DNA from: the human T2T-CHM13v2.0 reference genome, Homo sapiens
NCBI RefSeq assembly: GCF_009914755.1
Contig: NC_060926.1
Direction: 5' to 3' (one strand)
DNA length: 64,000 nucleotides
Made by a program: the position numbers and the translations under genes
Shown here: one piece after another, positions 27,128-61,428 of the stretch
Position numbering within the stretch: the stretch's first letter is position 1
Layout: each line of letters starts with the position of its first letter
Notes under the pieces: model-generated
Told to the model about the DNA's origin: nothing
The model's input: the letters and a program-made list of their open reading frames with translations, nothing else
Database searches by the model: none

Positions 27128-27291
27128 CTTCACTCAATATTCCTAAAGATACAATCTCCCCAGGTGGTGAGCCATGGTACCAGTATTTCAGTGTAGTGGC
27201 TATACTGTGTGCAGCCAAAATGCCTCCAAATTGTCTTCCTGTGGTGGTCAAGTTTTTAAGAATTGCCACAAATTCTCTTTTTACCCACTCA
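27128..27291 (-). CDS. MDH1B: MDH1B coding exon 7 ([13 protein letters not shown]…[11 protein letters not shown])
   Basis: Acceptor CTTACAG; donor GTAAAT; 164 nt; overlaps track ORF 27042-27269. Confidence 0.94.
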
Positions 27292-28008: not shown

Positions 28009-28432
28009 ATTCACGTTGAGAATTAGGAAAATAATTATGTTTTTATGATCTGAAGTCTAAATTCAGAGAATAGTCCAGCTGGTTAGCTTCTGCTAACCCT
28101 GCACGACACAGCTCTATGCAACACTGGTCCTGCCCACGCAGCAAATGCAGAGGAATCATGCTTCAAAATAGTGAACTCGGGACACATCATCCCTAGGCAG
28201 GGGTGAAGCTCCTATGGTCTGAGGAAGAAAAGGAAAGCAAAGGGCAATGGAAAGAAAATCCTACAACTGGGAAAGTGCTGCAAAGTTTAGAAAAAATGCT
28301 TCAGAGGTGCTCCTTCCTGCTTCTCCTCTGCCTCATCATAATTGCTAGTGCTTATTGTACAGACACAGCCCTAAGTCCTTTATTGGGAGTAATCCATTTT
28401 ATCTTCCCCAAGACCCTATAGGGAGGACCCTT

Positions 28433-28540
28433 ATCATGTTACCATTTCCACTTTGCAGATGAAAAACTGAGTTACAGAGAGGCTGCTTAGCCTCTCTGTA
28501 ACTCAGTTTTTCATCTGCAAAGTGGAAATGGTAACATGAT
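28433..28540. repeat. Perfect inverted repeat (52-bp arms, 4-nt loop) within a MIR element
   Basis: 28433-28484 is the exact reverse complement of 28489-28540; followed by a 17-bp tandem duplication (28541-28574). Confidence 0.97.
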
Positions 28541-29041
28541 GGTCACACAGCTACTAAGGTCACACAGCTACTAAGTGGCTAAGTGAGAATCCCAGCCTGG
28601 GTGGCTTGGTCCTAGGACTGTGTTCCTCACCACCTCTTGCTTCGGCCTCCTGCCACAGAATGCCCAGACTGGCCTGTGCCTGCTCATCGTCTTAACTCCT
28701 TTCTTGAAAACGTTTCAATTAATTTCAACCTGGATAGATAGCTCTGTCTTTACACGAAGTAAGATTCCCTTATACATGCTTGCTTTAGAGATAACCTTAC
28801 TTGAATATATGAACTACTGAAGGATCTGAAATATAAAAATTCATAATTTCAAAATCAAATCAATTACCTAGTTGATATTCTGTGGAATTTTCTGTTTCTT
28901 CAGTAGACAGCATGAACAAATATGAGTGTGAACAATGCAAGTTATTTTTGTACAAAGATTTATGAGATGATTTAAAAGATTACAACCATTAAACATTTAT
29001 TTTAACATTGTCAGTATGCTTCACTTCAAAATATACTGTAC

Positions 29042-29183
29042 CTGTCAAAAATCAAGTTTAAAACAGGGCGTGAATAATGAAGAGGTCCCCAAATGGCACT
29101 CTCATATCTGTACACCCTTGTTTTTCTCAGATCAACGTAATTATTTCCACTGATATTACCCCAAATGATCACGTCTTTAATGT
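29042..29183 (-). CDS. MDH1B: MDH1B coding exon 6 ([18 protein letters not shown]…NLIFD)
   Basis: Acceptor CACAG; donor GTACAG; 142 nt; aligns with MDH1 VKNVIIWGNHS. Confidence 0.94.
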
Positions 29184-42123: not shown

Positions 42124-42451
<328 letters not shown>

Positions 42452-43825: not shown

Positions 43826-44527
<702 letters not shown>

Positions 44528-51135: not shown

Positions 51136-51521
<386 letters not shown>

Positions 51522-61353: not shown

Positions 61354-61428
61354 CTTGTCATGTCTTACCCAGTCTCTGGTGCAGCCTTGACAACAGGCTG
61401 CACCGGAGACTGGGTAAGACATGACAAG
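61354..61428. ncRNA. MIR3130: MIR3130-1/-2 pre-miRNA hairpin (readable from both strands)
   Basis: 75-nt inverted repeat with 34-bp arms and a 7-nt loop; contains GCTGCACCGGAGACTGGGTAA, the recalled miR-3130-3p; lies in a FASTKD2 intron. Confidence 0.88.

What the first reader, a model, noticed from the sequence alone, without database searches (positions are those of the whole stretch)
28433..28574. Perfect 108-bp palindrome inside an ancient MIR: template-switch scar and possible de novo hairpin RNA
Seen: 28433-28484 and 28489-28540 are exact reverse complements (52/52, loop gctt), followed directly by ggtcacacagctactaa twice (28541-28574). The left arm and the downstream flank follow the MIR core (…cagatga.aaactgag…cagagagg[…]ggtcacacagcta.taagtgg). 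The right arm replaces the short MIR segment expected between them. A mismatch-free stem in a heavily diverged repeat must be recent or actively homogenised. This fits a replication template-switch mutation, a mechanism proposed to create miRNA hairpins in one step. It lies in transcribed MDH1B intron 6, so it gives a 52-bp dsRNA stem (Drosha/Dicer/ADAR substrate) and a potential DNA cruciform. I recall no miRNA annotated here.
Basis: partly seen in the sequence, partly recalled or inferred. Interest (0 to 1): 0.75.

Follow-up and report, generated by a model that had tools for sequence, protein, structure and literature searches.

The report
Young perfect hairpin in old SINE
A stretch of an ancient repeat in an intron of the human MDH1B gene was copied backwards, and a neighbouring 17 bases copied forwards, in what looks like one recent copying accident; this made a flawless 52-base-pair hairpin, a clean example of a known mutation type with no sign yet that it does anything.

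Summary
28433-28484 and 28489-28540 are 52/52 reverse complements around the spacer GCTT. GGTCACACAGCTACTAA follows twice at 28541-28574.

A profile I built from 30 other genomic copies of the same interspersed repeat (I recall it as MIR) matches the + strand at 28352-28484 and 28554-28651. It matches the right arm only on the - strand. So the left arm and both flanks are native, and the right arm is an inverted copy. The copy carries all the left arm's private changes.

The 17-bp duplication is the only complex perfect tandem duplication in the 64 kb, and it touches the palindrome. I therefore read both as one compound templated insertion.

The mechanism is template switching, either at a replication fork (favoured) or as snap-back synthesis during break repair. 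These cannot be separated here. Zero differences put the event at a median of about 5-13 My, with an upper bound of about 22-58 My.

The RNA hairpin is certain to form (-98 kcal/mol). It is 52-56 bp with a 4-nt loop, which is off the miRNA optimum. It matches no Rfam family and carries no annotation. Outgroup alleles, polymorphism, reads and small RNAs could not be tested.

Verdict: a new member of a known kind, of modest interest.

The parts
28352..28432 (+). Native upstream part of the old interspersed repeat (MIR-like). It runs without a break into the left arm.
   Evidence: nhmmer with a profile of 30 other genomic copies: + strand hit 28352-28484, profile positions 41-188, E 9.5e-16.
28433..28484 (+). 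Left arm of the palindrome. This is the native repeat sequence and the template of the inverted copy.
   Evidence: The profile alignment runs straight across 28432/28433. Against the majority of the 30 copies there are 32 matches, 10 mismatches and 7 bases in insertion columns.
28485..28488 (.). 4-nt spacer GCTT, the loop (AAGC on the MDH1B sense strand). Its ancestral orientation is undetermined.
   Evidence: The - strand profile hit runs through it, so both orientations resemble the family at this point.
28489..28540 (-). Right arm: an inserted inverted copy of 28433-28484 (48-52 nt new, depending on whether AGCC at 28489-28492 is ancestral).
   Evidence: 100% complementary to the left arm. 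It matches the repeat profile only on the - strand (28536->28483, profile 140-194, E 1.4e-9). 43 of the 56 bases of loop plus right arm fall in columns where the other copies have gaps.
28541..28557 (+). First 17-mer: an inserted direct copy of the native 17-mer to its right.
   Evidence: Perfect tandem duplication 28541-28575. It is the only non-simple one (unit 12-40) in the 64 kb. 15 of its 17 bases fall in gap columns of the family alignment.
28558..28651 (+). Second 17-mer and the native downstream part of the repeat.
   Evidence: nhmmer + strand hit 28554-28651, profile positions 200-304, E 9.9e-11.
28426..28429 (+). GACC. It pairs with GGTC at 28541-28544 across a 3-nt bulge, extending the predicted stem to 56 bp.
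   Evidence: Minimum-free-energy folds on both strands.

Best explanation
An old, roughly 29%-diverged copy of a mammalian interspersed repeat (MIR-like SINE core) in MDH1B intron 6 suffered one compound templated insertion of about 63-69 bp. A growing DNA strand left its template just past the motif ...CAGAGAGGCT. It then copied the preceding 48-52 nt from the opposite strand, or from itself after folding back. The 4-nt complementarity GGCT/AGCC may have primed this. The strand then returned to the original template and copied the next 15-17 nt twice, re-annealing on a 1-2-nt microhomology.

The result is left arm, GCTT, inverted copy, then two 17-mers. I favour short-range template switching at a replication fork, as a chained event. 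The event is late in the element's life, most likely within the last about 5-15 My and at most a few tens of My.

Shown: the anatomy, which arm is native, and the lateness. Inferred: that it was a single event, the switch points, and the replicative setting.

The consequence is that every MDH1B pre-mRNA carries a 52-56-bp perfect RNA hairpin about 470-610 nt into a 1750-nt intron. The DNA is a cruciform-capable palindrome. Most likely it is a neutral by-product: an editing or dsRNA-nuclease substrate at best, and not an established miRNA gene.
For: (1) Arms 52/52, spacer 4 nt, adjacent 17-mer repeated twice.
(2) The motif pair that flanks the junction occurs in 164 places in the genome (86 forward and 78 reverse; 0 for the reversed control). 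The usual spacing is 17 nt, seen in 21 of the 30 copies fetched. The window instead has 10 + 48 + 17 nt there.
(3) The profile of those 30 copies hits the + strand on both sides (E 9.5e-16 and 9.9e-11). It hits the right arm only in reverse (E 1.4e-9).
(4) The right arm reproduces all 10 private mismatches and the private inserted bases of the left arm. It was therefore copied from this locus after it had diverged.
(5) Window identity to the family majority is 0.709 over 86 core columns (the 30 copies range 0.57-0.88), against 0 differences between the arms.
(6) The 17-bp duplication is the only complex perfect tandem duplication in 64 kb, and it begins at the base after the palindrome. Chance adjacency is about 1e-4 to 1e-5 (the probability is my inference).
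(7) AA precedes GGTCAC in 15 of 30 copies, and the 17-mer ends in AA. This gives a plausible 2-nt microhomology for the direct copy.
(8) Published template-switch events: mean length 11.6 bp, maxima of 97-180 bp per person, and chained inverted-forward-inverted cases (passages of PMC9435742). Events behind the human miRNA loci in part 1 of 3 of Table S1, the only part I read, are 20-88 nt (PMC10710096).
(9) The region is unique in the assembly: only self-matches plus one weak repeat hit.
Against: No outgroup or second human haplotype could be examined. The pre-event allele, the date and the switch points are therefore inferred, not seen.

The junction right arm | first 17-mer shows no microhomology that I can read from the derived allele.

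The loop can be aligned to the family in either orientation, so two different switch paths fit.

At 48-52 nt the inverted copy is about four times the published mean for template-switch events.

The locus is absent from the supplements I could search of two template-switch papers. Those studies excluded repeat-overlapping loci or listed only miRBase loci. Files 13-22 of PMC9435742, which the file list names as figures and tables, were not searched.
Confidence: 0.75

Rival explanations
1. Same anatomy, different setting. A double-strand break inside the repeat was repaired by synthesis-dependent microhomology-mediated end joining (polymerase theta type). One 3' tail snapped back on itself at GGCT/AGCC and was extended 48 nt. 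It then sampled the other end, copying 15-17 nt, dissociating and re-annealing. This left an inverted plus a direct templated insertion.
For: The insertion consists only of copies of its two immediate flanks, one inverted and one direct. That is the pattern described for snap-back and trans-templated synthesis. My sources are abstracts in a search listing only: PMC4912351, PMC5728401, PMC2943611, PMC11724301. The 4-nt GGCT/AGCC and 1-2-nt AA/G microhomologies are of the size those pathways use (reading).
Against: The inverted templated duplications at breaks in the yeast study are 'most ~5-34 bp' (abstract of PMC11724301). Here the inverted copy is 48-52 nt and the whole insertion 63-69 nt. 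No deletion of flanking sequence is evident beyond at most about 5-7 nt of the repeat. Germline short-range inverted copies are usually attributed to replication in the literature I read.
Confidence: 0.2
2. The hairpin is already a small-RNA gene, a proto-miRNA or hairpin-derived endogenous siRNA. It would be cut out of the MDH1B intron by Drosha and/or Dicer in testis and ciliated cells.
For: It lies in the sense strand of a transcribed intron, the favoured site of template-switch-born miRNAs (abstract of PMC10710096). The fold is extremely stable: -98.1 kcal/mol, with 0 of 200 shuffles as good. On the sense strand a U|G sits at the base of the extended stem, and CUCC follows it directly (sequence; the rules for the basal UG and downstream CNNC motifs are recalled). 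A near-perfect palindrome 33 kb away in the same window is an accepted miRNA on both strands (MIR3130). Rfam's nearest models are miRNA hairpins.
Against: The stem is 52-56 bp and the loop 4 nt. The stated preference is a 35-bp stem and a loop of 10 nt or more. MIR3130 fits that rule, with 34-bp arms and a 7-nt loop. No Rfam family reaches threshold: the best are 44.5 against a cut-off of 84, and 43.9 against 70. RefSeq annotates no miRNA here (supplied table). A 20-nt string from the arm occurs in 0 papers. None of the 5 papers holding both 'MDH1B' and 'hairpin' concerns this, judged by title and abstract. Only 18 of more than 6,000 suitable template-switch hairpins became accepted miRNAs (abstract).
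Confidence: 0.1
3. The palindrome is old and is kept perfect by repeated arm-to-arm correction, through gene conversion or recurrent template switching.
For: Template switching has been proposed to maintain hairpins as well as create them (title and abstract of PMC8794818). Zero differences alone cannot tell young from homogenised.
Against: It needs an unknown selective or mechanistic drive at a mid-intron site. The adjacent 17-mer pair is also perfect, and hairpin correction would not homogenise a direct repeat. MIR3130, an accepted palindromic miRNA, already shows a mismatch in 34 bp.
Confidence: 0.04
4. It is an assembly or sequencing fold-back artefact in T2T-CHM13.
For: Fold-back chimeras exist in long-read data (recalled). 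No reads could be inspected.
Against: The structure is short, internally exact and embedded in collinear unique sequence. It comes with a direct 17-bp duplication that a fold-back read would not create. A consensus of many accurate reads would not keep a rare chimera (inference).
Confidence: 0.02

Closest known systems
Short-range template-switch mutations (four-point model; Loytynoja & Goldman 2017, Walker et al. 2021, Loytynoja 2022) and the hairpins or miRNAs born from them (Monttinen et al. 2023)
   Same: It is an inverted copy of immediately adjacent sequence that creates a perfect stem in one step, and it is intronic. Its size lies within the 20-88 nt listed for miRNA-generating events. 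Chained inverted plus forward pieces have been described.
   Different: The ancestral allele has not been seen, so the defining parent-child comparison is missing. The copy is about four times the mean event length. It lies inside a repeat, a class those studies filtered out. No small RNA is known from it.
MIR3130-1/-2 (Rfam RF03736), the palindromic miRNA in the same window
   Same: It is a near-perfect palindrome in an intron of a neighbouring gene, and it folds equally on both strands.
   Different: MIR3130 has 34-bp arms, one mismatch and a 7-nt loop, which is the canonical size. It does not match the repeat profile (no hit). The MDH1B hairpin is 52 bp with a 4-nt loop and is unannotated.
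miRNA hairpins with MIR-like sequence: mir-3934 (RF03195) and mir-452 (RF00839)
   Same: These are the best sub-threshold Rfam matches (E about 1e-7). The mir-3934 locus matches my repeat profile (E 2.9e-12), so a hairpin miRNA from this repeat core has precedent. Both arms of mir-452 carry the same core-like motif.
   Different: The scores are far below the gathering cut-offs (44.5 against 84; 43.9 against 70), so it is not a member of either family. mir-3934 uses the repeat's own imperfect fold, not an inverted duplication. The repeat origin of mir-452 is not established here (E 0.075 over 17 nt).
Templated insertions of polymerase-theta / SD-MMEJ break repair
   Same: The insertion is built from an inverted copy of one flank and a direct copy of the other, with short microhomologies.
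   Different: It is larger than the sizes given in the abstract I saw. It is germline and fixed in this assembly. The break is hypothetical.
Hairpin-derived endogenous siRNA precursors from inverted SINE pairs (mouse ES cells and oocytes; recalled, not looked up)
   Same: It is a long, perfectly paired intramolecular duplex made of SINE sequence.
   Different: Those arise from two separate SINE insertions and are longer. This one is a 52-bp fold-back inside a single element, in human, where Dicer handles long perfect duplexes poorly (recalled).

Membership tests
Template-switch mutation product | The new sequence is the reverse complement of sequence lying within a short distance on the same chromosome. 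| tested here: met
   52/52 complementarity to the segment 4 nt away. The right arm matches the repeat profile only in reverse.
Template-switch mutation product | The flanks on both sides stay collinear with the ancestral sequence. | tested here: met
   + strand profile hits 41-188 and 200-304 lie on either side of the insert. Other family copies stand in for the ancestor.
Template-switch mutation product | A parent or outgroup allele without the inverted copy, explained by one switch path better than by point changes. | not testable with these tools
   No other primate genome or human haplotype is held. The assembly has no relatives in the tool.
Canonical miRNA precursor (Microprocessor substrate) | A stem of about 35 bp. 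| tested here: not met
   52 bp, or 56 with the bulged extension. The rule is quoted in PMC10710096.
Canonical miRNA precursor (Microprocessor substrate) | An unstructured apical loop of 10 nt or more. | tested here: not met
   The loop is 4 nt. The rule is quoted.
Canonical miRNA precursor (Microprocessor substrate) | Membership of a described miRNA family, or an annotation. | tested here: not met
   No Rfam hit at gathering score. The best sub-threshold hits are 44.5 against 84 and 43.9 against 70. There is no RefSeq miRNA row for this place.
Canonical miRNA precursor (Microprocessor substrate) | Stacks of about 22-nt reads with a 2-nt 3' overhang, dependent on Drosha and Dicer. | not testable with these tools
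   No small-RNA data are available. A text search for a 20-nt arm string found 0 papers.
MIR-type interspersed repeat (name recalled) | Significant collinear similarity to many dispersed genomic copies. | tested here: met
   164 genomic matches to the flanking motif pair against 0 in the control. Profile hits at E 9.5e-16 and 9.9e-11. No curated repeat library was available, so subfamily and name are untested.
mir-452 family (RF00839) | A score at or above the Rfam gathering cut-off of 70 bits. | tested here: not met
   43.9 bits on either strand. The true locus scores 111.9.
Polymerase-theta / SD-MMEJ templated insertion | The insertion is templated from the break flanks, directly and/or inverted. 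| tested here: met
   Inverted copy of the left flank plus direct copy of the right flank.
Polymerase-theta / SD-MMEJ templated insertion | Microhomology at each junction, and the usual short size. | tested here: inconclusive
   GGCT/AGCC (4 nt) and AA or G (1-2 nt) are possible, but none is visible at 28540/28541. The 63-69 nt size is above the '~5-34 bp' of the one abstract seen.

The most novel reading that the evidence does not exclude
The insertion is hominid- or human-specific, and perhaps still polymorphic. It was created in one chained template-switch event inside a SINE core, and it is caught at the proto-gene stage. In MDH1B-expressing germline and ciliated cells, the 52-bp perfect intronic duplex would be edited by ADAR and/or diced into small RNAs. 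Its nearest sequence and structure neighbour would be mir-452, which may itself be an ancient fold-back of the same repeat core. That would make this repeat core a recurrent seedbed of hairpin genes, with a before-and-after pair available for study.
Probability: 0.1. Interest if true: 0.55.

Novelty: new member of a known kind. Interest (0 to 1): 0.3.

Why it matters
It is an unusually clean and long natural example of a one-step birth of a perfect hairpin from non-hairpin sequence. Three things make it useful: the donor arm is datable because it sits in an old repeat; an adjacent direct duplication records a second switch; and the site is transcribed. If ape genomes show the pre-event allele, the exact switch points and microhomologies can be read off, which bears on the open question of replication versus repair. 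If small RNAs or editing are found, it would be a very young proto-miRNA or endo-siRNA locus. As DNA, a 108-bp spacer-poor palindrome is a candidate site of fork stalling and deletion polymorphism (review passages). If none of this holds, it is simply one more neutral template-switch scar.

Tried and rejected

A shorter pattern was used instead.

(c) A whole-genome DNA search with 28300-28700 gave only self-matches and one weak repeat hit, because common words are skipped. It did not help for family assignment.

(d) Two head-to-head insertions of the repeat: rejected. The right arm shares every private change of the left arm, and the family is 12-43% diverged from its majority.

(e) mir-452 as an ancient fold-back of the same repeat: a lead only. 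The profile gives E 0.075 over 17 nt and no reverse-strand hit. In a review table of transposon-derived miRNAs, the only visible names matching the search string are miR-4520a, miR-4520b, miR-4525 and miR-4527 (one passage seen).

(f) I looked for the locus in supplements of PMC10710096 (3 files) and PMC9435742 (files 2-12 of 22, including Data S1-S3; files 1 and 13-22 not searched). The search strings were coordinate fragments and gene names, and they gave no relevant hit. The GRCh38 and hg19 coordinate fragments were derived from recalled miRNA coordinates and may be off.

(g) The palindrome catalogue PMC7680136 counts 783 palindromes of 100-200 bp. It requires a perfect central 8 bases, so this one, with its 4-nt spacer, would not be listed (passages).

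(h) I searched for other fold-backs of the same repeat core. There is one other locus with the CTGAG...CAGAGAGG centre, two with a GGAAACTGAG centre and none with a GGTCACACAGC centre. The class is rare and shows no evident hotspot.

(i) I could not decide whether the spacer is ancestral or inverted, because both readings align about equally.

Full report
**1. The observation**

Reading 28200-28800 and two repeat scans confirm the finding base for base.
- 28433-28484 and 28489-28540 are 52-nt arms, 100% complementary, separated by GCTT.
- GGTCACACAGCTACTAA follows immediately, twice (28541-28557 and 28558-28574).
- A script shows the tandem match runs one base further, to 28575.
- Across the whole 64 kb, a scan for inverted repeats of at least 24 nt within 200 nt returns 4 pairs. 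Only two are at least 97% complementary: this one, and the annotated MIR3130 hairpin (34-nt arms, one mismatch, 7-nt loop).

As single-stranded RNA the 132-nt segment folds to -98.1 kcal/mol on the MDH1B sense (-) strand and -98.7 on the + strand. As DNA a 162-nt segment folds to -68.8. In every case 0 of 200 dinucleotide shuffles do as well, with z between -14.5 and -19.3. Chance is excluded.

The folds add a 4-bp extension: GACC at 28426-28429 pairs with GGTC at 28541-28544 across a 3-nt bulge.

By the supplied exon table the site lies between exon 7 (27128-27291) and exon 6 (29042-29183) of the minus-strand gene. That is intron 6, about 470-610 nt from its 5' end, in a 1750-nt intron.

**2. 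What the surrounding sequence is**

No curated repeat library was available, so I built my own comparison set.
- A pattern taken from the window's own flanking motifs (AAACTGAG, 3 free bases, CAGAGAGG, a 5-40-nt gap, GGTCACACAGC) matches 164 places in the assembly: 86 forward and 78 reverse. The reversed control pattern matches 0. So this is a dispersed repeat family. I recognise its core as MIR, but that name is recalled.
- In the 30 copies fetched, the gap is 17 nt in 21, 16 nt in 6, and 12, 15 or 18 nt in one each. In the window the same interval holds CTGCTTAGCC, then 48 further bases of the right arm, then the first 17-mer.
- I aligned the 30 copies with the window, and built a profile from the 30 copies alone.
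- The profile hits the window three times: + strand 28352-28484 (profile 41-188, E 9.5e-16); + strand 28554-28651 (profile 200-304, E 9.9e-11); and - strand 28536 back to 28483 (profile 140-194, E 1.4e-9).
- The + strand alignment runs without a break across 28432/28433. So the left arm is native sequence continuous with its upstream flank, the downstream flank is native, and the right arm is a reversed second copy of profile positions 140-188.
- 43 of the 56 bases of loop plus right arm, and 15 of the 17 bases of the first 17-mer, fall in columns where the other copies have gaps.

**3. Order of events**

Against the majority of the 30 copies, the left arm has 32 matches, 10 mismatches and 7 bases in insertion columns. 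Over 86 well-defined core columns the window is 70.9% identical to the majority; the 30 copies themselves range from 57 to 88%. The right arm reproduces every one of those private differences, since it is 52/52 complementary. It was therefore copied from this very locus after the element had aged. It was not brought in by a second insertion of the repeat.

With 0 differences in 104 arm sites (138 sites with the two 17-mers), and recalled neutral rates of 0.5-1.0e-9 per site per year, the median age is 5-13 My and the 95% upper bound 22-58 My. A clock-free version gives a similar picture. The element accumulated at least 29% divergence over its life, so zero differences place the copy in roughly the last tenth of that life. 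This last step is my inference numbers.

'Recent' is thus right in relative terms, but the event need not be human-specific.

**4. One event or two**

A scan for perfect tandem duplications with units of 12-40 nt finds 8 rows in the window. Seven of them are three simple-sequence loci (poly-A, poly-T, TAAA). The only complex one is the 17-mer pair, and it starts at the base after the palindrome. With one such duplication per 64 kb, exact adjacency by chance is of the order of 1e-4 to 1e-5 (inference). I therefore read the inverted copy and the direct copy as parts of one compound insertion, or at least as causally linked.

A consistent path is as follows.
- A growing strand reaches ...GAGAGGCT GCTT AGCC.
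- Its end AGCC pairs with GGCT 4 nt back, or with the sister strand.
- It copies 48 nt in reverse, as far as 28433.
- It returns to the original template at GGTCAC and copies 15-17 nt.
- It slips back on a 1-2-nt match and copies the same stretch again. The 17-mer ends in AA, and AA precedes GGTCAC in 15 of 30 family copies. The repeat also runs on by one G.

A mirror-image path on the other strand works equally well. The reverse-strand profile hit runs through the spacer, so the spacer may be either ancestral or inverted. I cannot decide this without an outgroup.

**5. Mechanism and rivals**

Short-range template switching at replication forks is the documented source of such inverted copies in primates.
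- In haplotype-resolved human genomes the events average 11.56 bp, with per-person maxima of 97-180 bp. Chained inverted-forward-inverted cases are described (passages of PMC9435742).
- More than 6,000 hairpin-forming events are inferred on the human lineage, and at least 18 became accepted miRNAs (abstract of PMC10710096).
- In part 1 of 3 of that paper's Table S1, the only part I read, event lengths run from 20 to 88 nt. Several are 47-61 nt. The present 48-52 nt is long but within range.

The main rival is the same copying chemistry at a double-strand break: snap-back and trans-templated synthesis by polymerase theta or SD-MMEJ. I know this only from abstracts in a listing. The pattern of an inverted copy of one flank plus a direct copy of the other fits that pathway well. 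The size is larger than the '~5-34 bp' of the one abstract that gives numbers.

I put replication at about 0.55 and repair at about 0.2 of the total. The shared statement, a single late templated insertion, gets 0.75.

Long-term homogenisation of an old palindrome is unlikely, because the direct 17-mer pair is perfect too. An assembly artefact is unlikely, because the structure is short, lies in unique collinear sequence, and is accompanied by a direct duplication. Neither could be tested directly.

**6. Is it a miRNA?**

Nothing says so.
- Rfam at gathering thresholds finds mir-3130 (both strands) and three Alu-type SRP matches in the window, but nothing at 28.4 kb.
- With permissive thresholds the best matches are mir-3934 (44.5 bits, cut-off 84) and mir-452 (43.9 bits, cut-off 70). 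These are not memberships.
- The preference quoted in PMC10710096 is a 35-bp stem and an apical loop of at least 10 nt. MIR3130 meets it, with 34-bp arms and a 7-nt loop. The MDH1B hairpin, at 52-56 bp with a 4-nt loop, does not.
- On the sense strand a U|G sits at the base of the extended stem and CUCC follows it. These resemble the basal UG and downstream CNNC motifs, whose rules I recall, so some Microprocessor recognition is not excluded.
- A 20-nt string of the arm occurs in no searchable paper. The five papers containing both 'MDH1B' and 'hairpin' are unrelated by title and abstract.

The duplex will form in every pre-mRNA, and by its length it should be an ADAR substrate (recalled knowledge). 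Function remains unshown. I give 0.1 to real small-RNA production of any consequence.

**7. DNA-level consequence**

A 108-bp palindrome with a 4-nt spacer belongs to the class that review passages describe as riskier the longer, more identical and less spaced the arms are (PMC7999016). The human palindrome catalogue counts 783 palindromes of 100-200 bp, mostly AT-rich (PMC7680136). This one is 40% G+C. With a non-palindromic centre it would not be in that catalogue. Instability or polymorphism is plausible but untested.

**8. Context from the rest of the genome**

A search for other fold-backs of the same repeat core found few.
- One further locus has the CTGAG...CAGAGAGG centre: chromosome 19, 24/24 arms and a 1-nt spacer.
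- Two loci have a GGAAACTGAG centre.
- None has a GGTCACACAGC centre.

The MDH1B case is the longest of these, and there is no sign of a hotspot.

The mir-3934 locus matches my repeat profile (E 2.9e-12), and a second, reversed repeat copy lies about 110 nt downstream of it (E 1.3e-4). So hairpin miRNAs from this repeat core have precedent. Both arms of mir-452 carry a core-like motif, but the profile gives only E 0.075. That is a lead, not a result.

**9. Verdict**

The origin as an inverted templated copy inside an old repeat is well supported by anatomy. Timing, polymorphism, the exact mechanism and any RNA function are open and need data that these tools do not hold. It is a new, unusually tidy member of a known kind of mutation. 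Interest is 0.3.

Noticed in passing
window 61354-61428: MIR3130-1/-2 is a second near-perfect palindrome in the same window: 34-nt arms, one mismatch (a G-U pair on the + strand, unpaired on the - strand), 7-nt loop. It scores above the Rfam cut-off on both strands (99.7 and 97.4 against 95). It does not match the repeat profile. It is not mentioned in the text or the 3 held supplements of the template-switch miRNA paper, so its own origin by inverted duplication appears not to have been examined there.
   Followed up: partly
L037 1495-1543 (G000:C19:44054542-44054590): Another copy of the same repeat core carries a perfect 24/24 fold-back with a 1-nt spacer, centred just after CAGAGAGGGG. 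It is the only other genome hit to the fold-back pattern, and it looks like a smaller event of the same kind.
   Followed up: partly
L034 (G000:C23:150225842-150225926, mir-452): Both arms of the mir-452 hairpin contain a motif like the repeat core (...TTTGCAGA..GGAAACTGAGAC and its complement). The two arms differ by 3-nt gaps in different places, as if derived from one core-like arm. The profile support is weak (E 0.075 over 17 nt), so an ancient fold-back origin is only a lead.
   Followed up: partly
L035 (G000:C6:33519320-33519411, mir-3934): The mir-3934 precursor lies inside a copy of the same repeat (profile E 2.9e-12). A second, oppositely oriented copy lies about 110 nt downstream (E 1.3e-4).
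   Followed up: no
G000:C3:142876676-142876702 and G000:C19:38689203-38689223: Two short fold-backs centred on GGAAACTGAG (10-nt arms specified, spacers of 7 nt and 1 nt). Their full extent was not examined.
   Followed up: no
window 42259-42406, 44227-44374, 51150-51266: Three matches to the Rfam Metazoa_SRP model just above its cut-off (70.5-71.7 against 70). These are ordinary Alu-type elements.
   Followed up: no
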